This document shows positions 12,851 through 52,304 of a stretch of DNA of 64,000 nt, piece by piece. This DNA comes from Spironucleus salmonicida. Its lineage: Eukaryota. Where the stretch lies: the NCBI RefSeq assembly GCF_000497125.1, contig NC_090596.1, positions 1,178,001 through 1,242,000 of the forward strand. The letters are read 5' to 3'. Both the position numbers and the translations under genes were made by a program. The notes beneath the pieces are model-generated. The model had not been told where the DNA came from, ran no database searches, and worked only from the letters and a program-made list of their open reading frames with translations. Every line of letters starts with the position of its first letter. Position 1 is the first letter of the stretch.

Positions 12851-12855
12851 AAACG

Positions 12856-26041: not shown

Positions 26042-26069
26042 TGTGAGGACCGGCGTTTTCCACTCCAAA

Positions 26070-26339
26070 ATGGTAGACATGCGGGGGCAGCTGCAGATCT
26101 ACTTCGTGCTGTACGGGGGCCTGGCGGTGGTCGCAGCGGTGTCGGTTCTGGCGGCGCTGCTGCTGCAGAGCGTCCAGGTGGTGCTCTACACGCACGGGCT
26201 CGGGGTGCTGCTGGTGGCGGGGCTCGTGGTGCCCGACTGGCCGCTGTGGAACCGGATGGGGCTGCGCTACGCGCCTGTTGGGAGCGCGAGGGGCCCGGAG
26301 CCCGAGATCGCGCGGCAGATGCGGGGAGCGCGCCAGTGA
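26070..26339 (+). CDS. SPCS1: SPC12/SPCS1-like, copy 2
   Basis: Same protein as 12856-13125. Confidence 0.8.
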   Translation: MVDMRGQLQIYFVLYGGLAVVAAVSVLAALLLQSVQVVLYTHGLGVLLVAGLVVPDWPLWNRMGLRYAPVGSARGPEPEIARQMRGARQ

Positions 26340-26344
26340 CGTTT

Positions 26345-27619
26345 TCACTCACTCTTCCGCGCCGCCAGGAGCGCGGCCGGGACCAGCAGCAGCGCGAACG
26401 CGAAGCCCACGTAGACCGACGCCGGGGGGCCGCACCAGGCGCGGAGGGCGGCGATGAGGCCCGCGTCCACCGCCTGGGCCGCCACGACCGCGCAGTTGAA
26501 GAACCCCGCGTAGAGCCCGCGGGAGCCGCGCGGCGCCAGCGTGCCGATCGCGACCAGGTGCACGGAGTTCAGGGCGGCGTTCAGAGGGCCTAGCAGCCCC
26601 AGGCAGAGCACCACCGCTGTCTGGGAGCGCAGCGCCGGGGCGAACACGCCGCCCAGCAGCAGGGCCTGCGCGAGCAAGGCGATCACGGCGCAGCCGACCT
26701 GCGTCCAGCTCCCGCCGACCTTGCGGAGGAGCGCCGGGATGAGCGGGGCGGACAGGACGGTTGCCGCGCTCATCGCCAGCGTGCCCTCGGTGGTGACCCG
26801 GATGGAGTGCACCGTGCCGGCGAACTGCTGCGACGGCGTGAAGGCCAGCCAGCCGAGGAAGAGCGCCAGCATAGCCCACCAGAGCCGCCGCTCCATCGCC
26901 CGCAGCTCGGACCAGAGGTGGCTTGCGGCGTTCCTCGGGGGCTCCGGGGCCGCGGTGGGCGGGTCCTCCACGAACACGAGCGCCGGGTGCGCGCTGAGCA
27001 CGGTCGCCATGCAGGCGATGGGGGCCACCACGGGGTACAGCTCGGCCCAGCGCCCGGTCTGCGCGTGGAGGTCCAGCCCCAGCATGATGAGGCCGCACGC
27101 CGCGTTCGCCAGGCCCAGCATCAGGACCTGCGCCGCCGCCCCCGCCGCCTGCAGGTGCTCCGGGAGGTTGGCCAGCACCAGCGCGCGCAGGGCCACGAAC
27201 TCCACGTTCACGGCGATGTTGAAGAGCGCGACCCCCAGCACGGCCCATGCCAGCACGAAGGTCGCATGTGGCGCGCTCCCAGGGGCGAAGAAGGCGCCCG
27301 CCACCCGACTCGCGAACCCGCACCACAGCTGCGACACCGCGGTCAGGGCGGCGCCCACGGCCAGGCAGACGCGCCGGGGCCCGTGCCGGCTGGGGGAGCG
27401 GTCCATGCAGTAGCCGGCGAGCGGCTGCGTGACGAAGGCGCACGCCTGGCCGAGGCCCTGGCAGAGCGCGGACGCCTGCGGGCTGAGGTGCAGCTCGGCG
27501 AGGTAGGGCTGGTTGAGCACGGCGTAGAGCTCGAAGCAGAAGCTGATGCCGAAGAGGGGCAGCGTGGCCGCGAGGATGCGCCAAGCCGGCCAGGACGGCG
27601 GGGGGACCGTGGGCTCCAT
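26345..27619 (-). CDS. SUT/SLC45-like MFS transporter, copy 2 of 11576-12850
   Basis: Near-identical protein (about 4 substitutions). Confidence 0.85.
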   Translation of the reverse strand: MEPTVPPPSWPAWRILAATLPLFGISFCFELYAVLNQPYLAELHLSPQASALCQGLGQACAFVTQPLAGYCMDRSPSRHGPRRVCLAVGAALTAVSQLWCGFASRVAGAFFAPGSAPHATFVLAWAVLGVALFNIAVNVEFVALRALVLANLPEHLQAAGAAAQVLMLGLANAACGLIMLGLDLHAQTGRWAELYPVVAPIACMATVLSAHPALVFVEDPPTAAPEPPRNAASHLWSELRAMERRLWWAMLALFLGWLAFTPSQQFAGTVHSIRVTTEGTLAMSAATVLSAPLIPALLRKVGGSWTQVGCAVIALLAQALLLGGVFAPALRSQTAVVLCLGLLGPLNAALNSVHLVAIGTLAPRGSRGLYAGFFNCAVVAAQAVDAGLIAALRAWCGPPASVYVGFAFALLLVPAALLAARKSE

Positions 27620-27644
27620 TTCGGAGGGGCAGTGAGAAAACAAA

Positions 27645-29084
27645 TCAGTCGAGGGGGTTGGAGGTCCTGATCTCGGGTTCTTCCTTCTGGGCGGCCACTC
27701 TATCGTCCATGCTCACCTCGCGGTCCGTGCGCTTCACGATGAGGGGGCTCACGAGCACCAGCAGGATCGAGGTCACGAAGGACACGTACAGCGAGGCCGA
27801 GTTGCCCACTAAGGCGGACACGCCCGAGATGATCGCGGAGTCCACGGCCTGGGCCACCACGATCGTGCAGTTGAAGATACCCGCGTAGAGACCCTTGGAC
27901 TTCTGGGGCGCCAGCACGCCCACGATGATGAGGTGGATCGAGTTCATGCACGCGTTCAGGAAGCCGATGATGGCCTGGCAGAAGATCTGCACGGCCATGT
28001 GGTTGACAGCTGCGCCGCCCGGGAAGGCGCCCGCGAAGAGGATGCACATCGCGAGGACGTTAGTCCCCGCCGCGAAGAACTGCATGTTGCGCTCGCCGAA
28101 TTTTTTGACGAGGCCTGCGAGGAAGGGGGAGAATATCATGACGACGACGTTCTGGGCGATGGCGCACATGTTGGTGACGTCGACGGAGAAGATCTTGCCG
28201 AGGAACTGCTGGTTGGGCGTGAAGGTGAGCCAGTCCACGAAGAGGACGATCATGGCGAAGTAGAAGATCTTGTTCATGCCGCGGAACTCGATGTAGAGCT
28301 CCTTGAACACGTTGCTGGAGGCCTTCGCCTCGACGAGCTGCGTCTCCTTGACCAGGATGAAGGCGGGGATGAAGGAGACTAGCGTCACCACGCAGGCGAT
28401 CGGGGCCATAATGGGGTATAGCTTGACCCAGGACATCACGTGGGTATTGGGGGGAACACCGGGGGTCGTGTCTATCGGGGAGGTCAGGTAGAGGACGAGC
28501 ATGATCACGTTGGAGATTGTGTTCGAGATGCCGCCCATGAGGGCCTGTCCGGAGGCGCCCTTGCCCTGGGACTCCTTGGGCACGTTGACCGCGATTAGGG
28601 AGTGGAAACTGCCCATCTCCACGTTGACCGCGATATTGAAGAGCACGATGCCCACGATGGCCCAGCCCTGGACGAAGCCGAGGTACTTGGAGCCAGCGGT
28701 GAGGTCCTCGGTGTACATGGTCGCAGCGGCCTTCTGTGCGAAGCCGCACCAGAGCTGAGAGAGGGCGGTGAGCACGCAGCCGATGGTGACGTAGAGCTTC
28801 CGGGCGCCGTACTTGCTCCGGGAGCGATCGGTGAGGTAGCCCACCACGGGTTGGACGAAGAAGCCGAACACGGGCCCGAGCACCTGCACGATGGACGAGG
28901 TGGAGGGGCCCAGGTTCAGCTGCTCGAGGTATGGCTGGTTGATGACACAGTATACGGAGAAGCAGAAGCCCACGCCGCACATGGTGAGGTTGATCATCAG
29001 GATCTTCCAGGTGGGCCAGTCGAGGTTCGGGTCGCGCTCGACCACCTCCTGAGTGACGGTGCCGTCGTAATCTGCATCGGCCAT
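27645..29084 (-). CDS. SUT/SLC45-like MFS transporter, copy 2 of 10111-11550
   Basis: 479 aa, same motifs; about 15 amino-acid differences from copy 1. Confidence 0.88.
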   Translation of the reverse strand: MADADYDGTVTQEVVERDPNLDWPTWKILMINLTMCGVGFCFSVYCVINQPYLEQLNLGPSTSSIVQVLGPVFGFFVQPVVGYLTDRSRSKYGARKLYVTIGCVLTALSQLWCGFAQKAAATMYTEDLTAGSKYLGFVQGWAIVGIVLFNIAVNVEMGSFHSLIAVNVPKESQGKGASGQALMGGISNTISNVIMLVLYLTSPIDTTPGVPPNTHVMSWVKLYPIMAPIACVVTLVSFIPAFILVKETQLVEAKASSNVFKELYIEFRGMNKIFYFAMIVLFVDWLTFTPNQQFLGKIFSVDVTNMCAIAQNVVVMIFSPFLAGLVKKFGERNMQFFAAGTNVLAMCILFAGAFPGGAAVNHMAVQIFCQAIIGFLNACMNSIHLIIVGVLAPQKSKGLYAGIFNCTIVVAQAVDSAIISGVSALVGNSASLYVSFVTSILLVLVSPLIVKRTDREVSMDDRVAAQKEEPEIRTSNPLD

Positions 29085-29292
29085 TTTATAAACTTCGGGT
29101 GTCCGGAACTCTAGTGGATTGGGTATGATATTGATTCTCGCGACGATTCACAAATGTCAGTTATTCCGATCACTCTTGCTGATTTGGTGCCAATATACTA
29201 ATATACCCAAAAGTGTTCCGCATTCTTAAACTGTCCTGTAACACTTAGCCAGCTCCGGCAATTGTCCCGTGGCCGAAAGTGTTCCCGCTCCC

Positions 29293-29646
29293 ATGACCCG
29301 CTACTGGAACCCCGCCGAGGTAGAGACGCTCCGCGGCGCCGTGCTCGCCGAGACCTCCCCGGGCGGCGTGAACTGGGAGGGGGTGGCAGGCGCGGTGGGC
29401 TCCAAGACCGCGAAGCAGTGCTCCGTGCGCTTCCACAACATCGAGAAGTTCGGGGACCGCCCCAACGCCAGGATGCAGTGGTCGCCCCTGCAGGACCACC
29501 TGCTGCTGCACATTGCCATGGCGAACGGGAACGCGTGGGCGGCTGTCGCCGGCCAGCTGGGCGTGGGGGTCAGCGTGGCCAAGAACCGCTACTACGTCCT
29601 GCAGCGCATGGCAAGGCGCGACCAGCCCGTGCTGGTTCTAGAGTGA
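29293..29646 (+). CDS. Two-repeat Myb protein, copy 2 of 9549-9902
   Basis: Inverted copy with a few substitutions. Confidence 0.9.
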   Translation: MTRYWNPAEVETLRGAVLAETSPGGVNWEGVAGAVGSKTAKQCSVRFHNIEKFGDRPNARMQWSPLQDHLLLHIAMANGNAWAAVAGQLGVGVSVAKNRYYVLQRMARRDQPVLVLE

Positions 29647-29655
29647 AGAAGTCGA

Positions 29656-30081
29656 TCACCACAGCCAGCTCAGCTCCTGGAGGGCACCGCTCTGCTCCTC
29701 CCAAAGATCCTCCGGCATGACCGGCAGCTTGCTCAAGACGCCACATTCGCCCCCGCGCCGCAGCACGTAGAAGCGGTTCTTGCACACCGACACCGACAGG
29801 CCGATGCGCTCCGCCACCAGCACCCACTTGCGCCCGGTGGCCGCGGCCTCGCGGATTACCGCGCTGTCCATCTCCGACGTCCAGACTGACTTCGTGTGGG
29901 GCTGGCCGCCGCCCACGCTGAACTTCTCGATGTTGTGGTACCGGACGTAGCACTGGCGGGCGCTCTTGGTGGTCACTACCGCGGCGATCGCCTCCCAGCG
30001 GATGCACCGGCCCGGGGTAGTCCCCCGCACCGCGCCACGCAGGAGGGCGGTCTCGTTCTCGGTCCAGGTCCTGCTCGTCAT
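29656..30081 (-). CDS. Two-repeat Myb protein, copy 2 of 9114-9539
   Basis: Inverted copy, 2 amino-acid differences seen. Confidence 0.9.
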   Translation of the reverse strand: MTSRTWTENETALLRGAVRGTTPGRCIRWEAIAAVVTTKSARQCYVRYHNIEKFSVGGGQPHTKSVWTSEMDSAVIREAAATGRKWVLVAERIGLSVSVCKNRFYVLRRGGECGVLSKLPVMPEDLWEEQSGALQELSWLW

Positions 30082-30199
30082 TCTGTGTGGCGTTAGTTAG
30101 TGGAACGGAAAAGTGACTGCATATCCGTAGTAATATCGGGTTTCCGCGGAAAGTGTTGCGGGAACACTTTCTTGTGAATCGGTAGAATTCTGCAATCTC

Positions 30200-32281
30200 T
30201 CACTGGTAGAATACGGACTCGATCCCGTCCTCGGCGACCCGGCACCCCGCCCCCGCGAACGACAGCACCGCGGGCATGGCCGCCTCCATCGCGAAGGGGA
30301 CCCTGATCTCCCGCCCCACCTGCTGCACTCGCTGCTCCTGGTCGAATCCCTCCGCCGCCCACTCGCTTCGAGCGCGGTCGTGGCGCGGGTATACTCGCCA
30401 CCCGAACCCCACCTGCCGCTGCAGCTGGCGCACGTTCCCGGAGACGAGGACCCGCCCGTGCTGCAGCACGACCACCTCGCTGCAGAGGGAGTTGATTTCC
30501 GATATCTGGTGCGTCGACATGAGCACCGTCCCACTCAGCTGGCGCAGGGCGGCAGATATGATTCTCTGGCTGTTGAGGTCGATGCCGCATGTCGGCTCGT
30601 CCAGTAGGTACAGCGCAGCGTCCTTCAGCAGCGCGATCGCCAGGTTCAGCCGGCGCTGGTACCCCCCGGACAGCTTCTCCACCTGCTTGCCCCGCTCCGT
30701 TAGCTCCAGAAGGCCCAATACCTGCGATACCCTGGCCTGACTCTGGCCCACGATGGAGTTGCAGAGGCTGACATGCTGCTGGACCGTGAGGTTCTGGAAG
30801 GTGATATTTTCCTAAAACATGATGCTGAGCCTTTCGTAGTACTCGTGGTTCTGGGTGGCCTTCTGGCGCCCGCAGCAGGAAATATTCCCGACGGAAGGCG
30901 TTACGGACCCCTGGATGGCCTTGAACAGCGTTGTCTTCCCGGCCCCGTTCTCGGCCACGAGCCCTATTATCTGCCCCTACAACGGGATGTCGAGGCTCAC
31001 GTCGTCGAGTGCCACCTTCTGGTTCCGTTTTATTTTATACGACACTGTTAGGTTATCGATGCGCAGGCTGCTGATAGATGCAGGGTCGGGCGGGTGATTT
31101 CTGATCGAACTCTGGACGGGATTCTCTCCCACGCGCACGGATCGGTCGATATATATCCCCGCAGCGAAATACAGTATCATGGATATGAGCGATATCAGGC
31201 ATATGTAGAGCAGAGATCCGTGCTGCGCGTCGTAGTTACTGAAGAACTCGATGAAGGAGAAGCTCTGCTGCTGGAGGTAGAGGTACGATATTTTGTTGTA
31301 GTAGACAACGGCGGCAGAGGAAGGGAAGAAAAACATGCAAAGGAACTGGGCTATTATTTGGTAATCGGTAGAGAACACTAGCTGGATGACCATGTAGCCA
31401 AACTGGCCTATGACGCCCGTAATTACAAATATGACCAGTATCTGAGACTGTTTAGACCCGATGCTCAGGATGAACATCGAGAACCCCACAGAAAATGCCA
31501 GCGCTGGGAATACCGACATCACAAATGCAAAGAAGGATACTGCGGGCGCAATCTTGACTTACTGTAAAAAGAACACCAGGAATCCCATCATCAGGCTGAC
31601 TAGCAGAGTTTCAGCAGCCGTTATCGAGGCCACACCGATCCAAAAGTTTTGCTTATGCATACCGAGGCAAATTAGATACTCGTATCTCCGCTTCTCCTTC
31701 AGCTTGGCCACATTCACAACTTAGAACAAAGAAAGGATGAAGAAGGAGTACGGGGCAAAGAATAGGAACGAATTGTAAAACTGAACGCTAGAGTATACAA
31801 ATTAATAATTTATTGGTTTATGAAAATTAAGAAAATATTATAACAGATATAGTGATACTGAGTCTACCATATCTTAGTCAGGGATTGGAATTTAATCAAC
31901 TGTATTAATAGATACAACAAAGTTTTGTATAGATATCGAAGCAAGTATGTTATTACTATTCTACGAAATATATAAATTCATATCTTCTAAATTGTTAAAA
32001 TATACAGCTTGAAGATTTAATTAATTTTCTTCATTAAGCGACATCAAAGTATTTTCAATAGCTTCTATTTGCTTTTGTTGAACATTAAATGCTATTTATT
32101 AATTTTTATATTGCTTTAAGATAACTGGCATTTTAAAATTTTTAATTTCTGAATTTATAGGTCTATTATATGAAAATATGGCAGAGATCATTGGTATTGA
32201 TATGCACAAAACTATTGTGAATAAATACATGACCAAACTAGACTTTTTAGAATAAATTTAAAATAATATACCACTCTTCAT
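30200..32281 (-). CDS. ABCA-like half transporter (TMD plus NBD), full length, 693 aa
   Basis: ATG 32281 (MKSGILFQIYSKKSSLVMYLFTIVLCISIPMISAIF) open into the repeat arm; KLKEKRRYEYLICLG..FW ABCA-type motif; Walker A AENGAGKTT, LSGG, LLDEPT. Confidence 0.85.
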
Positions 32282-32362: not shown

Positions 32363-34243
32363 TCACTCATATTCTGTTGCACTAATCACGGTTACGTTAT
32401 CCATCATCCAAGCTACCCACTGACTGAGAACTTTTCCACCATCTAAAGTCTAACTATCACCAACGACAATTAGTTACTATTTGGCTCTAGTCATGCTCAC
32501 GTTCAGTCGCTTGTAGTCTTCTAAAAACCCTACTTATTAGTCTTCGTTACTTCGGGTCATGCTCATAACGATGACATCTTTTTCACGTCCTTAAAATCCA
32601 TCAATTGTGTGGATTTCCACCTACGAATCTTCCAATTTTTCACGAAGAAGTGCAACCTATGCAGAATATGGGGCAATTACCCCAATATCCTCAAATCGCG
32701 TTTTTTGAAGCAGCAAGTTGACGATTTTGGCCACTAGCTCGCCTTCTAGCGTGTTCTTGAGAGAGCCGCCCCGGACCCCCTCACCCCTCTCCTCGAAATA
32801 ATCGCACCCCGCGGTGTCAACAAATACGATACTCACGTCGTCGATAACCTGATTCTGCACTGCTTTTTCGCCCCCGCTCCGCAGCTTATTCTCGTAAAAC
32901 TACAAGCTCGGAAACTCGCAAATCAGCGAGCCAAATCGGTATGAAATATCCAGCAAGACGAAGTCAAAGTCCTTCTGGGTCATTTTGCAGAGGCGCCGCA
33001 GCGCCGATACGGCGAAGCGCGTGAGCCGCTTCGCGTTATCGTCGAGGATCGTTGCAGAGAGCTGTCGGGGGTCCCCGCAGAGAACTAGGCCCCCGTGACA
33101 CGCCACAACGGCGGCAGCCAGCCCCGCATCCAGGGCTTGGCCGGCCTCGTCCACAACGACCAAATCGAACGTCTCACGCAGCGTAGCAGCGGTGCTGAGC
33201 GTGCAGGCGACGATCTTCTGGGCGTCGAAAACCTCGTTTTTGAATGACTTCATGGCCTGATTTAGCGTCTTCAGTGCCTGCCGAAGCGCGTTCCGCGAAG
33301 TGATATAATCTGCCCTTTCGCCAGTTTTCGCCTGGCTTTTCTGGGCCTTCTGGAGCTGCTTTTGGCACTCCGCGACGTCCTTTCGCATCTCCTTGAGCTC
33401 GACTTTTTTCGTCGCGAGGATGACGTTTTCGAGCAAAAAATGCTCGGTTTCGGGCGTCGCGCGCGCCACGGACCCGAGGCGCAGCCCCCGCGTGCGCACG
33501 AGCAGGTTGTCCACCGCCGTGTTCGAGGCGGCCGTGATCAAAATGCGGTGGCCTGGATGCAAATTCCGGTACATTTCAATGCCCGCGGCAAGCGTGGTCG
33601 TTTTCCCGGTCCCCGGGGGGCCTTATATCACTAATAACTGCTTATGGCCGATTTGTGCGATTTTAGAGGCCGCTGCCGTTTACGAGGCGTTGAGAGACGG
33701 AAAATCGAGCAGTTTGGTGCTGATTTGCTGGAAAAACGGGTGCAGTGTGAAAATCGAAGCATGTGGGTTTTGGTCGCTTAGCTGCTTCAGCGACGTCATG
33801 TTGCGCTTCGAGGTGACCTCTGAGCCCGCCTTCGTGAGAACGAAGTGCTGGGAGTCGTTAAAATCTGCAAAATCCTGCTCCGGGAGCACTTTTACGGTCA
33901 ATTTGTTTACTGAGAGGATCGTTCCGCGCGTCAGAAGGACGAGTTTTGAGCTAAAAATGAAAACTAAATCGCGGGACCGAAAAGTGCAAACTTAGTTCAA
34001 ATCGAAGGTGACAGCTGACGTTTTTCCTTCAATATCTGGGGATATTTGAGATATGACTAGATTTTTAAGCGCTTTCCCAGAGGACAGTAGTACGTTTAGC
34101 GGATATGTTGGATGTAAATTGATTTATGGATAATTCTGGTTTGGGGATATAAAACCTACAGGAAGAGGTGTTTATAAGATTTCGGCGTTACGCTCTAAAT
34201 CGATACCAAGCTCGTTGTCCTCAAAGAATTCTTTGCTAAGCAT
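32363..34243 (-). CDS. IGHMBP2: Upf1-like SF1 helicase, IGHMBP2/Hcs1 type, 626 aa
   Basis: IDLERNAE N-terminus, IQGPPGTGKTT, ASNTAVDNL, VDEAGQ, GDPRQL, IGVIAPYSAQV, TIDGFQGREKD, RLNVSMTRAK. Confidence 0.88.
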
Positions 34244-34315
34244 TAATTAAAACGAAAAAGTAATTTATAAATTATTATATATGTATATTAATTATTAATT
34301 CATTTCTTATTGCGC

Positions 34316-35639: not shown

Positions 35640-36629
35640 TCACATAAATGGATCATATGGTGCAGCTGATGCTGTATCTGTATCAGTTTTAATATCTTCA
35701 TTTGAAAATTAAGTAGACACTACAACTTCTTCTGCTTCAACAATATTCTCTTCTGCATCTTCTTAGTTAACTGATTCTTCATATATTACTTCTTACGATT
35801 AAATATTCTCCACTATATCTGCATCTTATATTATCTATTCTTACTCTTAAGCATCCTCAATAATATATTCTTCTTACACTACTTAAACTTTCTCTTCTAT
35901 TTCGTATTCGGTTTCTTCTTGAACTAATTCTTCAAAAGGCTCTTCTAGCTAATTGGCTTCTTCACTTTAAACTTATTCGATGACTTAATCCTCCTAATCT
36001 ATATCGCATGGTTAATCTGCTTCATTCTAATTAGAACTTTCAATTTATTTTTATGAAACTTCTTCATTTTAATTAGACTATTCCTAAACCAATAAAGCTT
36101 GTTACTCATACATCTCATTGCTTCCTAATGCTGGGCTAACAATATTAACAGTTTTATTATCTAAAAACGATGAAATTGCAGATAAAATCTTACTATCATT
36201 CAGAAGTTCTCCTTTGAGTCTTAACTATTGCTCATCAATATTGCTATTTTTCAATATTTCTATTATATCATAAAATATTTCTGTTTTGTCTGCAACTTTA
36301 GCTACGTCATAATTTCCTAGATTTATTTCTTCTCCAGATTCTTCATGAATATCGCTAAAATCATGTCTCAATTAGAGTTCTATATTTTAAAGTTCAGTAA
36401 TTTAAGCCTAAAATTAGTTTATATTCTCATTAGTTAGTGATATCTATCTTTTTAAATCTATAAGATCTTACGATGTTTTTGCAGCGTTACCTTCGGCACT
36501 TTCATAGTTAGATTTTAATGTTTATAGCTGAGATTTGAATTCTGATAGTTATTTCTTTAGTTGGTTGTTAGAATCCATAATATTTTGTGTTTCCTATGAT
36601 ACTTCATCCGATTTACAACAGGCAAACAT
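35640..36629 (-). CDS. Hypothetical coiled-coil protein with acidic C-terminal half and N-terminal Cys-Cys, 329 aa
   Basis: MFACCKSDEV start, heptad-like region, Glu/Gln-rich tail; ATG and TGA in frame. Confidence 0.7.
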
Positions 36630-37356
36630 TATATGTAAATGAAATGGCAAAAATAATAAATTATTATTAAATAAGTAAAATAATTATATATTGTGGTTTG
36701 TCATCCACACATTTCGAATATTCATAATAATTCTGTCTATTGGTTTCTTAGACTTAATTTAAAAATTTATCATTAATTATACATATTAACATATAAAATG
36801 AAATTATTATTAATAGAATAAAAATATTCCAAATCTGATCTTTAGAATTAAAAAATATATCTTCTACTGAATTAAAATTAAAAATTGCTATTTCAACAGA
36901 TTAAATTATTTGACTCCTATTTGACCTAGAATCCATACGATTTGTTGTTATCGCCCATTGAAAAAGATTTTTTCTTCTTAAATCTAAATATTAGCATCGA
37001 AATGCATTTAAATTAACATATTATATTCAATATTGTATTATAATTGAAACGTTCATTTGCTTAAATTTTCACTCATGAATTTTAGTCGGTGTTCCAAAAC
37101 AGTGGATTTTCGCGCAGATCAATTGGCTTGATGATGACTCTCACTTTTCTTCTTTGCGGCTTCATTTTAGGCGAAAAAGCGGGATGGAAATTTTGCTTCC
37201 ATCGAACTGCAAATTCGCGTCAGCGCCAATTCGCTCGAAAACGCATTTAACTATTTTTTAAATTCGCGCTACCCCAATTTTCAATCTTTCAGCGATCGAA
37301 AAATCCAAAACGCGCGAGGTGAACCCCAAAGAGCTTTAAAGTGCAAATTAAATCGT

Positions 37357-38664
37357 TCACATTTTCGTGTCATTTAGTGCCTTTTCTTCGTTTTGCCGCT
37401 CTTGCGCTAGATCTATTTCCTCCATTTTGCCGCTTTCGAGCCACGCTTTCCCTACGACGAGGAAGCGCCGGAACCCGCCCAGCGTGGCCAGCTGCAGCTT
37501 CTCGCGGACGCTCACCTTCTGGCGCGCGTCGTAAACGCCGCTTTCGGGTCTGAAATCCACGCCCTGAACGGCGTAGAAATCGTCGTCCCGGATGCGCTCG
37601 CTGAGCGCCAAAACGTCCAGCAGGTGCACTCTTAGCAGGCCGGCGGAGCAGCTCTGCTTTAGCATCTTGAAATCTCTGCTTATGCGCTTGAATTCGAGTA
37701 TTTCGTCCGTTTTGGTACAACTTCTTTCCACCAAATCGACGTAAATACAGCTTTTGATGTACTTTTTGAAGTCGAAGTTTACGATGTGGACATCAAGTTT
37801 GTTAGCTCCAGTGACGCAATTATTCATAGTTTTGCAGGACAAATCTAAAACAATTTGACTTTAATTTTGATTTTTCATTCCTTTTATGCCAGCGAATCCT
37901 GGTATCAGGTCATGGAATTCGAGTAATTTTTGGGTGGCTAACTGGACTTTTCCGCCTAGAAACTGCTCCAATTTTGCTTAATTTACGTCCAAATCGCCTC
38001 TGATATAAACGAAAACCAGCTTAGACTGGAATTCGAAAAGCACTGCTTTTATAATCAATTTGGGGTCGATTTTTAAGAAAGTTGAGAGCTCGCCGACTGT
38101 GTGACTGTTTGGGGTGTGCACTAGCAGCTCTTCCTCGTAATTTAGTGATCCAACTTCTTCATAAGTTGGGACTTCGTACGTTTGGCTTGATGTTGATAGA
38201 ACGAATCCAAACTAAGTTGTGTTAACAAATGTGTCTTTTAATGAAAAAAGTTGCGCTAAAGAAGTAAACTGAGAGAGTGAAAACTCTGTTTCCTGAGCAA
38301 TTAAAAATTCTAGATAAAAATCAGTTTTAGATGGTAGAATTGGGTTCTTTGCCGTTTCTGACTGCTTAATGCCGAAATTTAAGCTTATTGGGAGGGCTTT
38401 GGTAGTTCTTAAAAATTCAATATGTGGTATACAGTCTGATTCTACTTAATACTAAATAAGTGCTTTTTGTGTATTTTCGAAATGGTTTGAAACTAAAGAT
38501 TCAATTTTTTCAGCAAAGTCAAATACTGATTATGACAGAATTAGCTTGTTGCTTGATCTATCATGACGTAATATACCTGAAGATTAAAGTCTTCGTAGAT
38601 GCTCGTTTTTGATATAGCTAGGCTGATCAAGTTGAGGCTTTAAAATGAGTTTCTCAATATTCAT
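37357..38664 (-). CDS. Bacterial-type prolyl-tRNA synthetase-derived protein: degenerate catalytic core, INS editing domain, anticodon-binding domain, 435 aa
   Basis: VHTPNSHTVGELSTFLKIDPKLIIKAVLF...IRGDLDVNQAKL...PGFAG...IVLD...VTGANKLDVHIVNFDF is the INS pattern; YDARQKVSVREKLQLATLGGFRRFLVVGKAWLESGKME is anticodon-binding-like. Confidence 0.82.
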
Positions 38665-39213
38665 TTGAGGAAAGAATATAATATAAATATTATATAGTTA
38701 TAAATAATTATTTTTTCTAACAGTGAAAAATATATTAAAAAATTATACAAAGCATGACATAGTACTTCTGATTAGTTTTATATAAAATATTTGTCATAGA
38801 GTATATTAGATCATTGAATATGGATCTGTCTTTCTTATTAGTAATTCAATTTAGTTGATGATTTTTGATAACACAAATTGCTAAAAATAGTTGTTATTAC
38901 TAAATATACAAGCAAGCCTGATTTGTTTTAATGAAAAAATTATCATATACTTAGATCTGTTATCTTTCTTAGAGGTTAATTATATGAAAATATTTTTATT
39001 CTATAACAAGTTGAACCTCTTGAAGTTATAATACCATTTGATTAATGCGCGTGGGTGTACATCCACCCTCCCGAGTCTACTGTGATACGTAAATCAAACG
39101 AGTCAAAGCAACTTTCACCATAATATAATTTATATATGCTGTGCATATAATATTTAGTCGAGTGGAATAAGTCCACTATATTATACAGTATACGCACAAA
39201 GTTATCCGGTAAA

Positions 39214-39492
39214 ATGGTGCACAAGTCGCAGCTACTAACCCTGTGCGGGGTCCTGTTCTCGCTGGTCGTTGACGTGCTGGTGCTGGTGATGTTCTCGCTC
39301 CAGTACGATGCCACCAAGTCGCCGTTCAACCTGGCCTTCATCGCGCTCTCGGCGGTGTTCCTGGTGAGCCTCTCGGCGGTGTTCGGGGTCCTCCTCGTGC
39401 GGTACTGGCGCTAGAGCTCTCCCAAGGCGGTGGGCAAGGGGATCCACAGGGGGCTGGTCTCCAGGGAGCAGGAGCAGGTTTACATCGCGTGA
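39214..39492 (+). CDS. Small two-TM membrane protein, 92 aa
   Basis: AAAATG start, two hydrophobic helices, reads through TAG(Gln) to TGA 39490-39492. Confidence 0.7.
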
Positions 39493-39716
39493 GTTATTGT
39501 CTTCAGTGCTGCCGCGTGCCGGAGGGGTGAGGCGGGAACTACTCAGTGCGGGAGCGAATAAGTAGCGCTCCAGCGGCCGCGGCCTGCAGTAAATATATAC
39601 GTTACAGGTGCGCGGCCAAGGGCGGAATCTGGTTATTATACGGCGTTTAGCCCACTCCCCAGAAACCGAACTTTGGGCTTAACTGCGCTATATACTCAGA
39701 TACGCTCAATCTTAAA

Positions 39717-41261
39717 ATGGGACGACTCAAGCTCCACGAGACCTCGGGCGTGCTGGTGGCCGCGGCGACCTCCCCGGCGCAGTTCCTCTACGCGCTCTCG
39801 GCCTCGCACGTGAACAACAACCTGCCCATCCTCTCAAGCTCCCTCGGGATCTCCCTCTCCACCGCCTCCTGGATCATCAACGTCGAGCTCATCGTCGTGG
39901 TCATCACCGCCACCATGACGGGCAAGCTCTGCGACCGCTTCGGCACCTCGCTCGTGATGTCGCTCGGCACCGCGGTCTTCGCGGTCTTCAACCTGCTCTT
40001 CCTCTTCGGCGCGGCCGAGACCTCGCTGCTCGTCGTGCTCATCCTGCGGTTCCTGGCGAGCGCGGGGCTGGGGCTCATGCTGCCCGCGAGCACCCCGCTG
40101 GCCGTGCAGCTGGTGAAGAAGGGCAAGCTGAACGTCGCTATCGCGATCATGTCCATCATGGTGCCCTTCGGCTTCATCCTGAGCAGCCTCGTCGCGGGAT
40201 ACGTGGCCCAGTACGGCAGCTGGCGCTACATGTTCGCCATCGTGGGCGGGCTCTCGCTGCTCTACCTCGGCGGCCAGCTGCTCGTGCTGCCCTACAAGGA
40301 GAGCGCACGGAGGCGGGTCCAGATCGACTTCCTGGGTGTGATCATCCTGTCGGTTGGCCTGACGCTGTTCATCGTCGGGCTGACGTCCTTCGCGCAGCAG
40401 CTGCTGCCCTGGTGGGGGTCAGCGCTCCTGCTGGTCGCCTCGGTAGGGGTGCTGGCATTCTTCGCGTTCTACAACATCAGGCTGTCCCGGGCCAAGGTGT
40501 TCCCGCTCACCGTGTTTAACCGCCCCACGGTGGTCATCGAGGTCATGATCTTCATGATCAACGTCCTGGGCTACAGCGAGCGCTTCCTGATGCCGTACAT
40601 CTTCATGGTGCTGCTGAAGCTCCCTCCCGGCCGCGCCGGCATCCTGATCTCCATCACGGGCTGCTCGACCTTCGCGTTCGCCCCGCTCGCGAGCTTCCTC
40701 TTCGTGCGCGTCACCACGCGCCGCCTGCAGTTCATGCTGCACGCGCTGTACCTGGTGTTCGTCCTCCTCAACATCCTGAACCTGCAGCTGGTGCAATCCG
40801 CCGTGTTCTACACCGTGATCACCTTCGTCACGATCGGGCTCACGACCGCCTCGACGATCATCTCCACCAACTACAACTTCTCCGCGGTGCCGCCCGCATT
40901 CCAGAACACGGTGGGCGTGCTGAACCAGCTCGTCACGAACGCCGGGCACTCGGTGGGCGTCACTCTCGCGGTGCTGGTCAACAACCTCTCGACCGACCCG
41001 GGCCAGGAGCTCACCTTCAACTCCGCCACGATCACGGTAGCCGCCTCCGGGGTCGTCGCGGTGGCGGTGGTGGCCACCTCGCTGCTCCTGAGCCTCTTCC
41101 AGTTCGAGCGCGGCAGGTGGGGCTACTCCGAGCGCCAGTCCGCCCGGACGAAGACCTTCGACGAGAACCTGCTGGGCGACCACGAGGTCCTGGAGGTGGA
41201 GCAGTTCGGCCAGGAGAAGGACTAGGAGCCCGCCTTCACCTACCGCGGGCTGCTGCTGTGA
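39717..41261 (+). CDS. MFS transporter, DHA2/EmrB-QacA (14-TMS) type, 514 aa
   Basis: VNNNLPIL, SWIIN, GKLCDRFG (motif A), LRFLASAG, GSWRYMF, IDFLG; TAG at 41223 is Gln, true stop 41259-41261; tail YRGLLL. Confidence 0.88.
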
Positions 41262-46364: not shown

Positions 46365-48107
46365 TCATGACATGTCGTGGGCATGAGGCGTGCCGGTCAT
46401 CCTTTGGACAGGTAGATCAAGCTGGGGAGCTTTTTTCTTATTCCGCATGCTTTTCAGAATTAGCACTACAACCAGGATTGTGATGGCAATCACTGCTAGC
46501 ACACCTACGAAAATACCTGTGATCTATCCTCCGGACATCAGCTGCGTGCACTGCTCCGGGTTGAGCGTGCAGTTGACGCATTCGCCGTTGACCATTTCCG
46601 CGCCCACGGTGCACGCCTCGCACGTTCCCCCGACTCCGCACATTGAGCAGCTCTCGACCAGGAGTGCATCGCATAGGCAGTGCGCGCCCAAGGGAATGGA
46701 TGCGCAGGAGCTGCACTGGCCTTCGCTCAGATAGTTGCCGGGCGTGCACGTCTTGCAGGCGGACCCCGTGCAGCTGGTGCAGCGCTGGATCAGGGTCCCG
46801 GCGCAGTTGCACTGCTCCCCCTCCGTTATCTACTCGCAAGGGCTGCACGCACCGTCCTTCAGGAAACGCCCAGGCTCGCAGGCCTGGCAGTCGGTCGCGT
46901 TTGTGCAGGTGCTGCAGTCTGCAATACAGACGCGGCATACGTGCACGATTAAAGTACTGTCGCAGTATTGACCATCGGCGCACGGGGTGGTCTTCTCGCA
47001 GTTGAAGGGGGCGCACTGCTTGTTCTCCAGGATGTACCCCGGGATGCACTTCCCGCAGCCCTCCAGACCGCATGCGTCGCAGTTCATGTATGGATTGCCG
47101 AGGCAGATGCAGGTCGATCCTACGATGCTATCCGCGCAGTCCTTGCACGAGCCCCCTACCAAAGAGTGCCCGTTGATGCACTACGAGCAGGTATCGCCAT
47201 CGCAGCCGCCGCAGTTCTCAATTTTCTGCGCGCCGCACTGGCAGCTCATCCCAAGCGGCGAGGTTGGCTGGCACGCCTTGCATGACCCTGATGCCAAGTA
47301 ATCTCCAACCTTACATTCTGTGCACGTACGTGAGCCGCCCGAGCACTTTACACAATTAGTATAGCATTCGGTACATACATTACCCTTTGTGGTAAACATT
47401 TCGCAGAACTAATGACTTGTGCAGTCGGTGTCGTTCTTGCATGCGTCCACAAAGCATTATCCGTTGGCTACTTTTCCACTCGGTAGGCAGGTTTGGCAGG
47501 TGCTTTGCTTTGGGTAGCATGCAGTGCAGCCACCTTGCTGTTTGTTCTGGCACTGGCACTTCTGGTCGAACGTCGTCATGCTGCTGCATGCTTGGCAGGT
47601 ATTGGCTTCGGTGATGAAGAAGTCGTTGTTGCACTGCTAGCACTTCAGCTAGATGTCGCACTTGAAGCAGTTTGACGGGCACGGCGTGCAGGTATTGGAT
47701 GCGTTCAGGACGAACCCAGGCGGGCAGGTAATGCAAACTTTTTCTGCCGAGCAGGTGAGGCAGTTGTCAGAGCACTTCTTGCACATATCGTTATCTAAGT
47801 AGTACCCATCCAGGCAGACTTAGCAGGAGGTTTCGCTGGTGCAGGTTTTGCAATTAGCCTGGCAATTAAGGCAGGCGCGGTCCTTGAGAAAGTGGGTATG
47901 GGTGCATTTGACGCACTAGCTGCCTTTACCACCTTCGCAAACTGCACAGTCTTTGCGTATGATGGAGTCACTATGGCACTGGCAGGAGGTTCCGACTGGC
48001 ATGTCTTCGTTGCATTTTTAGCACGTAATTTGGTCCTTGCCTGGATTTAGGGGGCAGTAAAAGTTTTGAACGCACCCGTTCATAGTATCAGAGCAGTTTC
48101 CACCCAT
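46365..48107 (-). CDS. Cysteine-rich membrane protein (CRMP; VSP/HCMP-like), 580 aa
   Basis: Many CxxC motifs, C-terminal TM (GIFVGVLAVIAITILVVVLIL) then basic KSMRNKKK tail; ATG and TGA in frame. Confidence 0.9.
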
Positions 48108-48493
48108 TTTCAAGGGAAAGAAGCGAGTGATATCTAATGTTTAAATCTAGTTATAGTGTGGATTATTTTTAAATTTTAGTCGTATTGCAGTTATACTTAT
48201 TTAGGGGCAATAGCTTTCGATTCTGCGTGGCGAAATATATGCTATATACCTAAAAATATAAGTTAACTTTAGTTTTTCTAACTAATGTATAACCGATATT
48301 ATAGATACAGACTCCATAAATCAAAACGTAGAATTTTATGCTAATATAGGTTCAGCATAAAAATAGTACATTTACTAGGAGGCCGATGTTTCCAATACCG
48401 CGTATTACCCAAACCCGCGCCATCGTTTACTACCGAAACCAAAAACTCTTTCGTATTACCTCCATAGTACTGTATAATAGCGGCAGTACCTGA

Positions 48494-49044
48494 ATGGACG
48501 CAGCCGCCTGGTTCCACGACCCGCGCTACGCAGCACCCCCGATCGGGTCGGAGCTCATAACCCCGGAGCTGGCCGCACACTTCCCCCTGGCTCCCTGCTG
48601 CTCCTCCCCAACAGGGCGGCGCACCGCGACTACCCCGGAGTTCCCCCGGCCCAGTTCGCCCTGCGCCCGGAGCGGCCCAAGATCGGAGTATCGGCCTGCC
48701 TGACGGGCGAACGCTGCCGGTACGACGGGGGGCACGCCGCCCAGGACCTGGAGCGCTACGCCGGCCACGCGCTCGTCCGCTTCTGCCCCGAGCAGCTGGG
48801 CGGGCTCCCCACGCCGCGCGAGCCGGCGGACCTCTGCGGGGAGGAGGTGCTGACCCGGTCCGGGACGAGGGTGACCCTGGAGTTCCGGCGGGGCGCGGAG
48901 GCGGCGCTGCAGGGGCTGCTGGCCGAGAACGTGGTGCTGTGCGTGCTCAAGCGCAAGAGCCCCAGCTGCGGGGTGGAGCGGGGCGGCGTCACGGCGAGGC
49001 TGCTGGAGCGCCACGGCTTCGCGTGCGTGGACAGCGAGCGCTGA
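48494..49044 (+). pseudogene. DUF523/TudS-like gene, frameshifted copy
   Basis: C5 run at 48583-48587 versus C6 in the intact copy; otherwise colinear. May be a sequencing error. Confidence 0.65.
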
Positions 49045-49123
49045 GGGAGTGATACTTGCAATCTGCTTCGGGCCGACCCGCCGCTCCCAAAATATATCCC
49101 GCCGTTTCTTTCCGCCTCGCAAA

Positions 49124-51031: not shown

Positions 51032-51076
51032 GCGCGTGTCCGACCGCTATATGGCAGCCGCCCTTCCGCTCCGTAA

Positions 51077-51517: not shown

Positions 51518-51801
51518 TGCTAATCGTAATTTGTTATTCGTACTTAACTATGCATTTAATCTGGTTAACTATATACTTGATCACAGAACTTCATACATAT
51601 TACAGTGTATATTAGGAATAATCATTTGGTTCACACGCGTGATGTTGCGCCCGGCCACCCGAGTCTACTGTGATACGTAAATCAAACGAGTCAAAGCAAC
51701 TTTCACCATAATATAATTTATATATGCTGTGCATATAATATTTAGTCGAGTGGAATAAGTCCACTATATTATACAGTATACACACAACGTTATCCTGCAA
51801 A

Positions 51802-52080: not shown

Positions 52081-52304
52081 GTTATTGTCTTCAGTGCTGC
52101 CGCGTGCCGGAGGGGTGAGGCGGGAACTACTCAGTGCGGGAGCGAATAAGTAGCGCTCCAGCGGCCGCGGCCTGCAGTAAATATATACGTTACAGGTGCG
52201 CGGCCAAGGGCGGAATCTGGTTATTATACGGCGTTTAGCCCACTCCCCAGAAACCGAACTTTGGGCTTAACTGCGCTATATACTCAGATACGCTCAATCT
52301 TAAA

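What the first reader, a model, noticed from the sequence alone, without database searches (positions are those of the whole stretch)
37357..38664. Bacterial-type ProRS relic that keeps editing and anticodon-binding domains: candidate tRNA-Pro trans-editing factor
Seen: a 435 aa ORF, mostly invisible in the standard-code track, in ProRS domain order. The N-terminus is weakly ProRS-like (HLRRLQSSGILR...EKIESLV). A well-kept INS domain follows (TPN..TV.EL, IIKAV, RGD.DVN..KL, PGFAG, GAN...H), then an anticodon-binding-like end. I find no class II motif 2 (FRxE..PR) or motif 3 (GIG..R). Known: INS occurs in bacterial-type ProRS and hydrolyses Ala-tRNA(Pro), using a conserved Lys; archaeal/eukaryotic-type ProRS lack it, and free-standing editors such as YbaK/ProXp are single domains. 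Inference: a laterally acquired synthetase lost charging but was kept as a proofreading enzyme with its own tRNA-recognition module. I do not know this architecture from a eukaryote.
Basis: partly seen in the sequence, partly recalled or inferred. Interest (0 to 1): 0.88.

Follow-up and report, generated by a model that had tools for sequence, protein, structure and literature searches.

The report
Dead ProRS kept as tRNA proofreader
This protist gene encodes a prolyl-tRNA synthetase look-alike that has lost its charging site but kept its proofreading domain, so it probably removes wrongly attached alanine from proline tRNA, and relatives of it occur in other anaerobic protists and in many prokaryotes.

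Summary
Window 37357-38664 (-) is an intact 435-codon ORF under code 6, with 7 in-frame TAA/TAG and a TGA stop. Contigs from four public runs match it at 100%.

The protein is collinear with bacterial-type ProRS from end to end (hhalign E 1.1e-39; VIA-align Z 20.9 to 2j3l, model 10-414 on chain 11-553). Of the positions at least 90% conserved in 70 canonical ProRS, it keeps 15 of 19 in the INS editing domain, including K206 and GAN..H293. It keeps only 7 of 69 in the two catalytic halves. Motif 2 and motif 3 residues are gone and the THEE segment is deleted. The anticodon-binding end is weak by sequence but is supported by fold.

It is not unique. It belongs to a family found in Trichomonas, Histomonas, Trepomonas and Hexamita, where it carries only automatic names. 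ProRS-like proteins with the same losses are also common in prokaryotes, including Heimdallarchaeota MAGs, so charging may have been lost before the gene reached eukaryotes.

Best reading: a dimeric Ala-tRNAPro trans-editing factor guided by its own anticodon-binding domain (about 0.55). I found no paper describing it. It is a new variant of a known kind, and the closest analogue is archaeal ThrRS-ed.

The parts
37357..38664 (-). Whole CDS: 435 codons plus the TGA stop at 37357-37359. Read with code 6, it has 7 in-frame TAA/TAG = Gln.
   Evidence: 100% identical contigs in four runs; the identical 435-aa protein is in the public collection
38140..38664 (-). Residues 1-175: first half of the degenerate class II catalytic core. 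The ProRS-like N-terminus is kept. Motif 1 prolines, the THEE segment and the motif 2 FRxE/Arg residues are lost. This is the predicted dimer interface.
   Evidence: hhalign 1-72 to ProRS 1-73, E 4e-5; 3 of 49 conserved positions kept; motif table; homodimer model interface at residues 1-116
37726..38139 (-). Residues 176-313: INS (YbaK-fold) aminoacyl-tRNA editing domain.
   Evidence: PF04073 E 3.9e-15; 2j3l residues 250-384; hhalign E 3.7e-39 for the family; VIA-align Z 17.5, rmsd 3.0, 136 aligned to 1wdv; 15 of 19 conserved positions kept
38047..38049 (-). Codon of Lys206 (IIKAV), in the column of the invariant INS lysine (K277 of P0002).
   Evidence: K in 70 of 70 canonical, 58 of 58 prokaryotic degenerate and 6 of 6 metamonad sequences; codon read
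37786..37788 (-). Codon of His293 (GANKLDVH), in the column of the conserved INS histidine (H362 of P0002).
   Evidence: codon read
37579..37725 (-). Residues 314-362: shortened second half of the catalytic core. The motif 3 region has lost the Gly-rich loop and the Arg.
   Evidence: 4 of 20 conserved positions kept; motif 3 columns read AGLLRVHLLDVLA
37360..37578 (-). Residues 363-435: reduced class IIa anticodon-binding-like domain with a D-x-R motif (YDARQK). The first helix is deleted. The DNA here is GC-rich.
   Evidence: hhalign E 0.033 to ProRS 497-539; family alignment; VIA-align of the whole model reaches chain residue 553 of 2j3l; Foldseek rows for the C-terminal model are all class IIa synthetases, best E 1.1e-3; 7 of 13 conserved positions kept; GC3 0.86 in codons 351-400

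Best explanation
The gene encodes a pseudo-synthetase: a bacterial-type ProRS paralogue that can no longer activate proline or charge tRNA but has kept three things. These are a hydrolytically competent INS domain, the class II core as a dimeric scaffold, and a reduced anticodon-binding domain. It most likely works in trans on tRNAPro mischarged with alanine by the cell's own INS-less synthetase. That the organism's ProRS is of the archaeal/eukaryotic type is assumed, not checked here. In this model the C-terminal domain holds tRNAPro by anticodon bases G35/G36, which every tRNAPro shares. The scaffold places the CCA end in the INS pocket, and Lys206 and the GAN..His293 pocket hydrolyse the Ala ester.

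Shown: the ORF, the domain order, loss of the catalytic motifs, conservation of the INS residues across the family, and the fold.

Inferred: deacylase activity, the Ala-tRNAPro substrate, anticodon-based recognition, dimerisation and expression.
For: 1. Descent from ProRS over the whole length. The family profile aligns to a profile of 20 bacterial ProRS at E 1.1e-39 over 439 columns, 26-479 to 2-543. The AF2 model (pLDDT 67.8, pTM 0.50) superposes on E. faecalis ProRS 2j3l_A with Z 20.9, rmsd 8.7 and 386 residues aligned, model 10-414 on chain 11-553. It also superposes on the INS-less ProRS 2i4l_A with Z 12.0, rmsd 5.4 and 268 aligned, so the core and C-terminal folds are there without INS.

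2. Selective conservation. I took positions at least 90% conserved in 70 canonical ProRS. This protein keeps 3 of 49 in the N-terminal core, 15 of 19 in INS, 4 of 20 in the C-terminal core and 7 of 13 in the anticodon-binding domain. The five other full-length family members keep 15-18 of the 19 INS positions. K206, R222-G-D, G256, D274, G-A-N 286-288 and H293 are identical in all 6 members.

3. The family is old and monophyletic. Seven metamonad rows form one clade with 100/100 support, split into a Trepomonas-type pair and a parabasalid group. That argues for long retention under selection.

4. NCBIfam finds only ProRS models, at 75 bits against a cut-off of 558, and no YbaK model at E up to 1. 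The domain is therefore INS proper, whose published activity is Ala-tRNAPro deacylation that depends on the anticodon-binding domain reading G35/G36 and not on the acceptor stem (PMC11295145, passages).

5. The same selective pattern recurs in 58 prokaryotic ProRS-like proteins. They keep on average 0.92 of the INS positions and 0.89 of the anticodon-binding positions, but only 0.36 and 0.46 of the two core halves. INS plus the anticodon-binding domain on a dead core looks like a recurrent working unit.

6. Homodimer model: ipSAE 0.70 (median of three runs) against 0.00 for the best of 3 controls. The runs agree in at least 92% of contacts, and partner pLDDT is at least 78. In the tool's calibration the mark was reached by 20 of 30 proteins solved as pairs of one chain and by 1 of 23 solved as single chains. 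On eukaryotes it was reached by 17 of 29 such pairs, but by only 1 of the 7 with no older solved relative. The interface lies in residues 1-116, the motif 1 region. ProRS dimers are solved, so this pass may reflect likeness only.

7. The sequence, including its in-frame TAA/TAG codons, is reproduced without differences in contigs of four runs.
Against: - No enzymatic, binding or expression data exist for this protein or any family member that I could find.
- The proline of the conserved G-x-x-x-P loop of INS (P332 of P0002, 91% in canonical ProRS and 90% in the prokaryotic degenerate set) is I, F or L in all 6 metamonad members. The pocket is therefore altered, and specificity or activity could differ.
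- The anticodon-binding domain is the weakest part: E 0.033 on its own, no PF03129 hit in any of 10 members, its first helix deleted in this protein, pLDDT 59-70 there, and no Foldseek match at E 0.001 or better for the isolated domain.
- I could not check whether the genome has an INS-less ProRS or lacks ProXp-ala, because no genome is held.
- The terminal branch of this protein is long, 1.5-1.9 changes per column. That is also what relaxed constraint would give.
Confidence: 0.55

Rival explanations
1. It is an aminoacyl-tRNA deacylase with a different substrate from classical INS. Candidates are Cys-, Ser- or Abu-tRNA, or a tRNA other than tRNAPro, as seen among the free-standing INS-superfamily members.
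For: The G-x-x-x-P proline is replaced by I, F or L in all 6 family members. The anticodon-binding domain is strongly diverged, keeping 3-7 of 13 conserved positions across the family. INS-superfamily members have varied specificities (PMC11295145, passages).
Against: By sequence the domain is ProRS INS and not YbaK or ProXp: only ProRS models match in NCBIfam, and the best PDB sequence hits are ProRS. The Lys, GAN and His positions that define the INS pocket are unchanged.
Confidence: 0.2
2. It is a non-catalytic tRNA- or protein-binding paralogue. It could be a tRNAPro chaperone or sequestering factor, a regulator, or a scaffold partner of other synthetases, with the INS fold kept for binding only.
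For: Several synthetase paralogues have left translation for other roles (review PMC9437257, passages). The predicted dimer interface is retained. The INS loop is altered.
Against: The residues kept across the family are the catalytic-pocket residues of INS (Lys, RGD, GAN..H), not just a hydrophobic core. The same residues are kept at 88-100% in 58 independent prokaryotic degenerate forms.
Confidence: 0.13
3. It is a decaying relic or pseudogene with no function, and the open frame is only apparent because TAA and TAG are read through.
For: The terminal branch is long (1.5-1.9). There are extra deletions relative to the relatives. No RNA holder is on record.
Against: There are 435 codons with no TGA and no frameshift. 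The start matches that of the relatives. 15 of 19 INS positions are kept against 7 of 69 core positions, a non-random pattern. Homologues are retained in parabasalids and diplomonads, and the Trepomonas entry bears an accession of a type that I recall marks transcriptome-derived proteins.
Confidence: 0.06
4. It is still an active prolyl-tRNA synthetase with an unorthodox active site, as the database names 'proline--tRNA ligase' and 'Prolyl-tRNA synthetase' on the Histomonas and Hexamita entries imply.
For: Database names only. The overall ProRS fold is present.
Against: Motif 2 Arg and Glu, the second motif 2 Arg, the motif 3 Gly loop and Arg, and the THEE segment are all missing or deleted. 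The NCBIfam ProRS score is 75 against a cut-off of 558. PF00587 was not found in any of 10 members. The protein is about 135 residues shorter than canonical ProRS.
Confidence: 0.02

Closest known systems
Bacterial-type prolyl-tRNA synthetase with INS domain (e.g. E. faecalis ProRS, PDB 2j3l; NCBIfam PRK09194 / TIGR00409)
   Same: Same domain order and folds from end to end: class II core, INS inserted in it, then a C-terminal class IIa anticodon-binding domain. The INS pocket residues are kept.
   Different: About 135 residues shorter. Motifs 1, 2 and 3 and the THEE segment are lost. The zinc-type Cys pairs flanking INS are lost in the family. The score is far below the family cut-offs. It cannot be filed as a ligase.
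ThrRS-ed of Crenarchaeota, a free-standing ThrRS paralogue that edits in trans
   Same: Same logic: a synthetase paralogue that carries the editing domain together with an anticodon-binding domain and works apart from the charging enzyme. A legend in PMC11295145 describes the ThrRS-ed model as a hydrolytic domain plus an anticodon-binding domain. Further details are recalled, not from a call.
   Different: Different synthetase family and an unrelated editing fold. It is archaeal, not eukaryotic, and no homology is implied. It works like this protein but is not a member of the same family.
Free-standing INS-superfamily trans-editing factors (ProXp-ala, YbaK, ProXp-x, ProXp-ST1/2)
   Same: Same YbaK/INS fold: Z 15-17.5, rmsd 2.8-3.4, about 136 residues aligned to 1wdv, 2cx5, 2z0k, 2dxa and 1dbx. 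The proposed role, clearing mischarged tRNAPro in trans, is that of ProXp-ala.
   Different: Those are single-domain proteins that read the acceptor stem (PMC11295145, passages). This one is 435 aa, has its own core and anticodon-binding-like domain, and its INS is of the cis (ProRS) type by sequence.
ProXp-ala fused to the N-terminus of eukaryotic-type ProRS (Plasmodium, trypanosomatids)
   Same: A protist solution to Ala-tRNAPro editing that uses an INS-superfamily domain (PMC11295145; PMC3532385 table).
   Different: There the editing domain is fused to an active archaeal/eukaryotic-type ProRS. Here it sits inside a dead bacterial-type ProRS encoded separately.
Prokaryotic degenerate ProRS-like proteins found here (e.g. 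WP_053955619.1 of Inediibacterium massiliense, named 'YbaK/EbsC family protein', 499 aa; Heimdallarchaeota MAG proteins of 509 and 539 aa)
   Same: Same pattern: ProRS order, motifs 2 and 3 lost, INS Lys and GAN..H kept at 100%.
   Different: They keep a canonical anticodon-binding motif (DDR..GVKF.DADL.G.P.R) and mostly the Cys pairs, and are 490-560 aa. They arise at many places in the tree: the degenerate label needs 18 changes on the 104-row tree. Their relation to the metamonad clade is unresolved. They are themselves uncharacterised as far as my searches show.

Membership tests
Proline--tRNA ligase, bacterial type (NCBIfam NF006625 / TIGR00409) | Whole-protein score above the curated cut-off | tested here: not met
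   75 bits against a cut-off of 558 (NF006625) and 32.2 against 306.7 (TIGR00409). Only residues 175-313 match.
Proline--tRNA ligase, bacterial type | Class II motif 2 (fRxE ... R) that binds ATP | tested here: not met
   The columns of R140, E142, R151 and R153 of P0002 hold K, S, P and K in this protein. None of the 6 family members has R at the R140 column.
Proline--tRNA ligase, bacterial type | Class II motif 3 (G.G.G..R) | tested here: not met
   The columns of G438, G440 and R443 hold R, H and D. This depends on the alignment: a conserved Arg lies 3-5 residues upstream in the family.
Proline--tRNA ligase, bacterial type | tRNA-synt_2b catalytic domain (PF00587) detectable | tested here: not met
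   No PF00587 hit at E up to 1 in any of 10 family members. The fold is still class II-like.
Proline--tRNA ligase, bacterial type | INS inserted between motifs 2 and 3, followed by a C-terminal anticodon-binding domain | tested here: met
   Collinear profile alignment 26-479 to 2-543. VIA-align maps model 10-414 on 2j3l residues 11-553.
INS / YbaK superfamily (Pfam PF04073 tRNA_edit) | Score above the Pfam gathering threshold | tested here: met
   56.4 bits against 25.5, E 3.9e-15, residues 184-295. 9 of 10 family members match.
INS / YbaK superfamily | Invariant active-site lysine | tested here: met
   K206 lies in the column where K is found in 70 of 70 canonical ProRS. Its catalytic role in E. 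coli ProRS is recalled from the literature, not taken from a call.
INS / YbaK superfamily | G-x-x-x-P loop | tested here: not met
   G256 is kept, but the Pro column (P332 of P0002) holds I260 here and I, F or L in all 6 members.
INS / YbaK superfamily | GAN....H pocket motif and YbaK fold | tested here: met
   G286-A-N and H293 are kept. Z 17.5, rmsd 3.0, 136 aligned to 1wdv_A, and Z 15.2 to YbaK 1dbx_A.
Free-standing single-domain trans-editing factors (YbaK, ProXp-ala and kin) | Single-domain protein of about 150-170 aa without a synthetase core or anticodon-binding domain | tested here: not met
   435 aa with ProRS-like regions on both sides of INS. No YbaK-type NCBIfam model matches at E up to 1.
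Class IIa anticodon-binding domain (Pfam PF03129 HGTP_anticodon) | Sequence match to the family model | tested here: inconclusive
   No hit at E up to 1 in 0 of 10 members. hhalign gives E 0.033 at the collinear place. 7 of 13 conserved positions are kept, including D379 and R381.
Ala-tRNAPro deacylase (function of INS) | Hydrolysis of Ala-tRNAPro, sparing Pro-tRNAPro and Ala-tRNAAla | not testable with these tools
   Needs a biochemical assay.

The most novel reading that the evidence does not exclude
Dead-core ProRS proteins that keep INS and the anticodon-binding domain form a widespread, undescribed class of tRNAPro proofreaders, a 'ProRS-ed' class. They arise wherever the charging ProRS lacks INS. 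On this reading the metamonad family shares ancestry with the version found in Heimdallarchaeota, either inherited from the archaeal ancestor of eukaryotes and lost elsewhere, or passed from an Asgard-like archaeon to an early metamonad. The module would be portable across domains of life because it reads the universal G35/G36 of tRNAPro rather than the acceptor stem.
Probability: 0.2. Interest if true: 0.8.

Novelty: new variant of a known kind. Interest (0 to 1): 0.66.

Why it matters
- It would be the first eukaryotic case, and the first for ProRS, of a whole synthetase scaffold kept only to proofread in trans. A 2024 review states that INS-superfamily members other than INS itself are single-domain proteins (PMC11295145, passages).
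- It offers a direct test of the idea that INS gets its tRNA specificity from the anticodon-binding domain. Here nature has already removed the charging site.
- It suggests how metamonads, which include Trichomonas and Histomonas and diplomonad relatives of Giardia, may guard proline codons without ProXp-ala. That absence is not yet checked.
- It flags misleading database names: 'proline--tRNA ligase' and 'Prolyl-tRNA synthetase' on the Histomonas and Hexamita entries.
- The same analysis exposed a large uncharacterised prokaryotic class with the same design, including in Asgard archaea. That class is testable by co-occurrence with INS-less ProRS.

Tried and rejected
1. Own genome: not held. 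I could not look for the canonical ProRS, ProXp-ala, YbaK or paralogues. tblastn of the window found only this one copy, and no tRNA gene lies in the window.

Supplements are closed and were not asked for. Lists of lateral-transfer candidates in supplements of diplomonad genome papers (seen only as search listings) may mention this gene.

3. Expression. The look-up of sequencing runs was busy four times and then answered. No RNA holder is listed. The four holders, all from one study, are of a kind that is not on record. Their contigs end near the ORF ends and leave 36619-37356 and about 38656-38807 uncovered.

4. Word-index search with the family profile: no new family members among 24 hits at E 1e-10 or better. 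Only 8000 candidates were scored.

5. Genome-contig scan with an alignment of five clostridial-type degenerate proteins. The 80 loci kept were at 26-40% identity. My regex screen found 51 canonical-looking ORFs out of 51 parsed. A looser pass flagged 10 loci, none clearly degenerate. The planned test of co-occurrence with INS-less ProRS could therefore not be run.

6. Origin.
- The quick 104-row tree put the metamonad clade beside a clostridial/Patescibacteria-type group (smallest starred set of 21 rows, nearest row with support 14).
- Holding the metamonad and Heimdall-type rows together gave a tree 84 log-likelihood units better than that free tree (p-AU 0.984). This shows mainly that the quick search was poor.
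- The careful 59-row tree gives the split of metamonad plus six Heimdall-type rows 98/87 support.
- The careful 35-row tree leaves a polytomy.
- An AU test of metamonads with the clostridial-type group did not finish and was dropped.
- I saw no shared indel that would mark a metamonad-Heimdall clade. Long-branch attraction is not excluded.
- For the trees I left out 31 of the 70 canonical rows as more than 60% identical in INS, near-identical cluster members, the 1401-aa P0135, and all hits under 430 aa except P0059.

7. Isolated C-terminal model: no Foldseek match at E 0.001 or better.

8. Literature. Full-text searches found no description of this family or of a dead ProRS paralogue. The 2022 review PMC9437257 (passages) lists only ProRSx as a ProRS paralogue. 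Subscription-only papers are outside the library.

9. Active ProRS and pseudogene readings were considered and rated low (see rivals).
Full report
THE SEQUENCE

On the minus strand, window 38664 down to 37357 reads under NCBI table 6 as 435 sense codons and a TGA stop. TAA falls in frame at codons 27, 45, 73, 229 and 268, and TAG at codons 71 and 151.

The choice of code is supported by the neighbours. The ORF at 32363-34303(-) has 18 in-frame TAA/TAG and matches the SF1 helicase domains AAA_11 and AAA_12 at E 2.1e-36 and 3.3e-50. An ABC transporter at 30200-32281(-) has 13. A Cys-rich membrane protein (46365-48317) and the code fit a diplomonad-like organism; this is an inference.

The identical 435-aa protein is already in the public protein collection, on a contig of 1,924,143 bases. 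Whole contigs of 1222-1282 nt from four runs of one study lie on the ORF with no differences, gaps or joints. The in-frame stops are therefore real sequence.

DOMAIN ANATOMY

INS is unambiguous.
- Pfam PF04073 matches at E 3.9e-15, 56.4 bits against a cut-off of 25.5, residues 184-295.
- NCBIfam finds only the two bacterial ProRS models, matching model positions 245-383, at 75 and 32 bits. That is far below the cut-offs of 558 and 307.
- The best PDB sequence match is the INS of E. faecalis ProRS 2j3l, residues 250-384.
- hhalign against 20 bacterial ProRS gives E 5.2e-26 with 38% identity.

The flanks became readable once relatives were found. A search of 1.84 billion representatives gave 656 hits at E 0.001 or better. 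The top ones match from residue 1: P0052 at 2.4e-35, P0053 at 1.6e-33, P0054 at 1.2e-31 and P0055 at 4.0e-28.

An alignment of ten family sequences aligns to the ProRS profile collinearly over 439 columns at E 1.1e-39. Taken alone, the three parts score as follows:
- N-terminal 72 residues: align to ProRS 1-73 at E 4e-5.
- INS: E 3.7e-39.
- C-terminal part: reaches only E 0.033, but at the collinear place, 373-415 to 497-539.

Pfam sees no PF00587 and no PF03129 in any of the ten members.

An AlphaFold2 model made without templates (pLDDT 67.8, pTM 0.50) matches bacterial ProRS by Foldseek at E 2.7e-22. VIA-align results:

| Target | Z | rmsd | Aligned | Model range on chain range |
|---|---|---|---|---|
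| 2j3l_A (E. faecalis ProRS) | 20.9 | 8.7 | 386 | 10-414 on 11-553 |
| 2i4l_A (R. palustris ProRS, no INS) | 12.0 | 5.4 | 268 | 7-424 on 7-426 |

The second match shows that a class II core plus a class IIa C-terminal domain are present apart from INS. A separate model of the last 123 residues (pLDDT 70.0) found no match at E 0.001 or better. Every row listed was HisRS, ProRS or ThrRS, with best E 1.1e-3. I therefore call the C-terminus anticodon-binding-like: supported by fold and collinearity, weak by sequence.

WHAT IS KEPT AND WHAT IS LOST

I aligned 134 proteins of at least 430 aa and took the positions at least 90% conserved in the 70 with intact motifs.

| Region | Conserved positions | Kept in this protein | Mean fraction kept in 58 prokaryotic degenerate forms |
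|---|---|---|---|
| N-terminal core | 49 | 3 | 0.36 |
| INS | 19 | 15 | 0.92 |
| C-terminal core | 20 | 4 | 0.46 |
| Anticodon-binding domain | 13 | 7 | 0.89 |

- Motif 2 is gone: R140 becomes K, E142 becomes S, R151 becomes P.
- The segment holding THEE is deleted.
- The motif 3 columns read R, H and D where canonical enzymes have G, G and R.
- In INS, the following are identical in all six full-length family members: T184-P185, K206, R222-G-D, K231, G256, D274, G286-A-N and H293.
- The one systematic change is the proline of the G-x-x-x-P loop, which is I, F or L in all six.
- The anticodon-binding domain keeps D379-x-R381 but lacks about 22 residues, its first helix. The fragment P0096 shares this deletion.

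THE FAMILY

Cluster look-ups name the relatives:
- Trichomonas vaginalis XP_001324349.1: 477 aa, 'YbaK / prolyl-tRNA synthetases associated domain containing protein'.
- Histomonas meleagridis: 476 aa, 'proline--tRNA ligase'.
- Trepomonas sp. PC1: 447 aa, 'Aminoacyl-tRNA editing domain-containing protein'.
- Hexamita inflata: a 244 aa piece, 'Prolyl-tRNA synthetase'.
- Several unnamed metagenomic sequences.

In all three trees the seven metamonad rows are one clade with full support. They split into a Trepomonas-type pair (98-100) and a parabasalid group (99-100). The window's protein sits on a long branch of 1.5-1.9. The gene is therefore old within Metamonada and has been retained in both parasitic and free-living lineages.

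AN UNEXPECTED WIDER CLASS

Of the 128 non-metamonad proteins in the table, 58 also lack motif 2 and/or motif 3 residues. They keep the INS lysine, G328, D343 and H362 at 100%, and the motif DDR..GVKF.DADL.G.P.R at 83-97%. This classification is my own crude rule: R and E of motif 2 plus R of motif 3 in a MAFFT alignment.

Named examples are two Candidatus Heimdallarchaeota MAG proteins, a CSSED10-310 bacterium, Inediibacterium massiliense and a Clostridium sp. (both named 'YbaK/EbsC family protein'), a Patescibacteria MAG and a Peptoniphilus entry. On the 104-row tree the degenerate label needs 18 changes, so the loss happened many times.

Where the metamonad clade attaches is not settled:
- Beside a clostridial/Patescibacteria-type group in the quick 104-row tree.
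- With six Heimdall-type rows at 98/87 in the careful 59-row tree.
- In a polytomy in the careful 35-row tree.
- Forcing metamonads and the Heimdall-type rows together in the 104-row set gave a better likelihood than the quick free tree, by +84 (p-AU 0.984).

No shared indel marks such a clade, and all these branches are long. The safe statement is a prokaryotic, bacterial-type ProRS origin with the donor unresolved. Loss of charging possibly came before the gene reached eukaryotes.

MECHANISM

A 2024 review (PMC11295145, passages read) makes three relevant points:
- INS deacylates Ala-tRNAPro. It avoids Ala-tRNAAla only through the ProRS anticodon-binding domain, which reads G35/G36, while acceptor-stem changes do not matter.
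- The acceptor-stem identity of tRNAPro differs between bacteria (G72/A73) and eukaryotes (C72/C73).
- INS-superfamily members other than INS are single-domain proteins.

This explains the anatomy seen here. An INS working in trans needs an anticodon-binding domain, and a scaffold that holds the two at the right distance. An anticodon-based reader is also the one kind of tRNAPro recognition that transfers between domains of life unchanged.

The degenerate core may also serve as the dimer interface. A homodimer model scored ipSAE 0.70 against 0.00 for the best of three controls, with the interface in residues 1-116. The runs agreed in at least 92% of contacts and partner pLDDT was at least 78. 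In the tool's calibration the mark was reached by 20 of 30 proteins solved as one-chain pairs and by 1 of 23 solved as single chains. ProRS dimers are solved, so the pass may reflect likeness only.

I put the Ala-tRNAPro trans-editing reading at about 0.55. The sub-claims 'not a synthetase' (about 0.95) and 'a gene under selection' (about 0.85) are much firmer.

WHAT IS KNOWN

The closest functional analogue is archaeal ThrRS-ed, a ThrRS paralogue with an editing domain and an anticodon-binding domain that edits in trans (legend in PMC11295145; further details recalled). The closest homologue is bacterial ProRS, but membership as a ligase fails on every catalytic criterion tested.

Full-text searches found no paper on this family or on a dead ProRS paralogue. 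A 2022 review of synthetase duplications lists only ProRSx for ProRS (PMC9437257, passages). Subscription journals and supplements were not searchable.

LIMITS

- No genome was held, so the type of the organism's charging ProRS and the absence of ProXp-ala remain assumptions.
- Expression is not shown.
- The test of co-occurrence with INS-less ProRS in prokaryotes failed for technical reasons.

VERDICT

This is a real, conserved and apparently undescribed variant of a known kind of system, with a testable mechanism and an open evolutionary question.

Noticed in passing
window 1-64000; ORF 37357-38664: GC content is an extreme mosaic, 17% to 75% per kb. Inside the ProRS-like ORF, GC3 rises from 0.22 (codons 51-150) to 0.86 (codons 351-400), so one gene spans a composition boundary. 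The cause is unknown; biased gene conversion near repeated GC-rich genes is one guess.
   Followed up: partly
window 7381-13274 and 25921-31814; 46519-51538 and 58980-64000: There are large inverted repeats. One pair is 5894 nt at 99%. Two adjoining pairs of 2956 and 2069 nt at 100% run to the window's end. They carry GC-rich ORFs and a Cys-rich membrane protein gene.
   Followed up: no
window 39035-41261 and 51623-53849: A direct duplication about 12.6 kb apart includes a GC-rich MFS transporter gene: 514 aa, PF07690 at E 8.6e-31, with ORFs of equal length at 39717-41261 and 52305-53849.
   Followed up: partly
proteins P0022, P0027, P0040, P0057, P0066, P0068, P0074, P0079, P0084, P0085, P0115, P0182 and others (not in the window): A large, diverse set of prokaryotic ProRS-like proteins of about 490-560 aa has lost motifs 2 and 3 but keeps INS and a canonical anticodon-binding motif. 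They are named 'YbaK/EbsC family protein', 'hypothetical' or 'proline--tRNA ligase' in databases, and two come from Heimdallarchaeota MAGs.
   Followed up: partly
database entries of relatives: The Histomonas meleagridis entries ('proline--tRNA ligase', 370 and 476 aa) and the Hexamita inflata entry ('Prolyl-tRNA synthetase', 244 aa) carry names that the missing catalytic motifs make unlikely to be right.
   Followed up: partly
window 35640-37019 (-): The downstream neighbour is an acidic coiled-coil-like ORF, very rich in Gln and Glu, with 48 in-frame TAA/TAG and no convincing Pfam family (DUF3450 at E 3.7e-4, below the cut-off).
   Followed up: no
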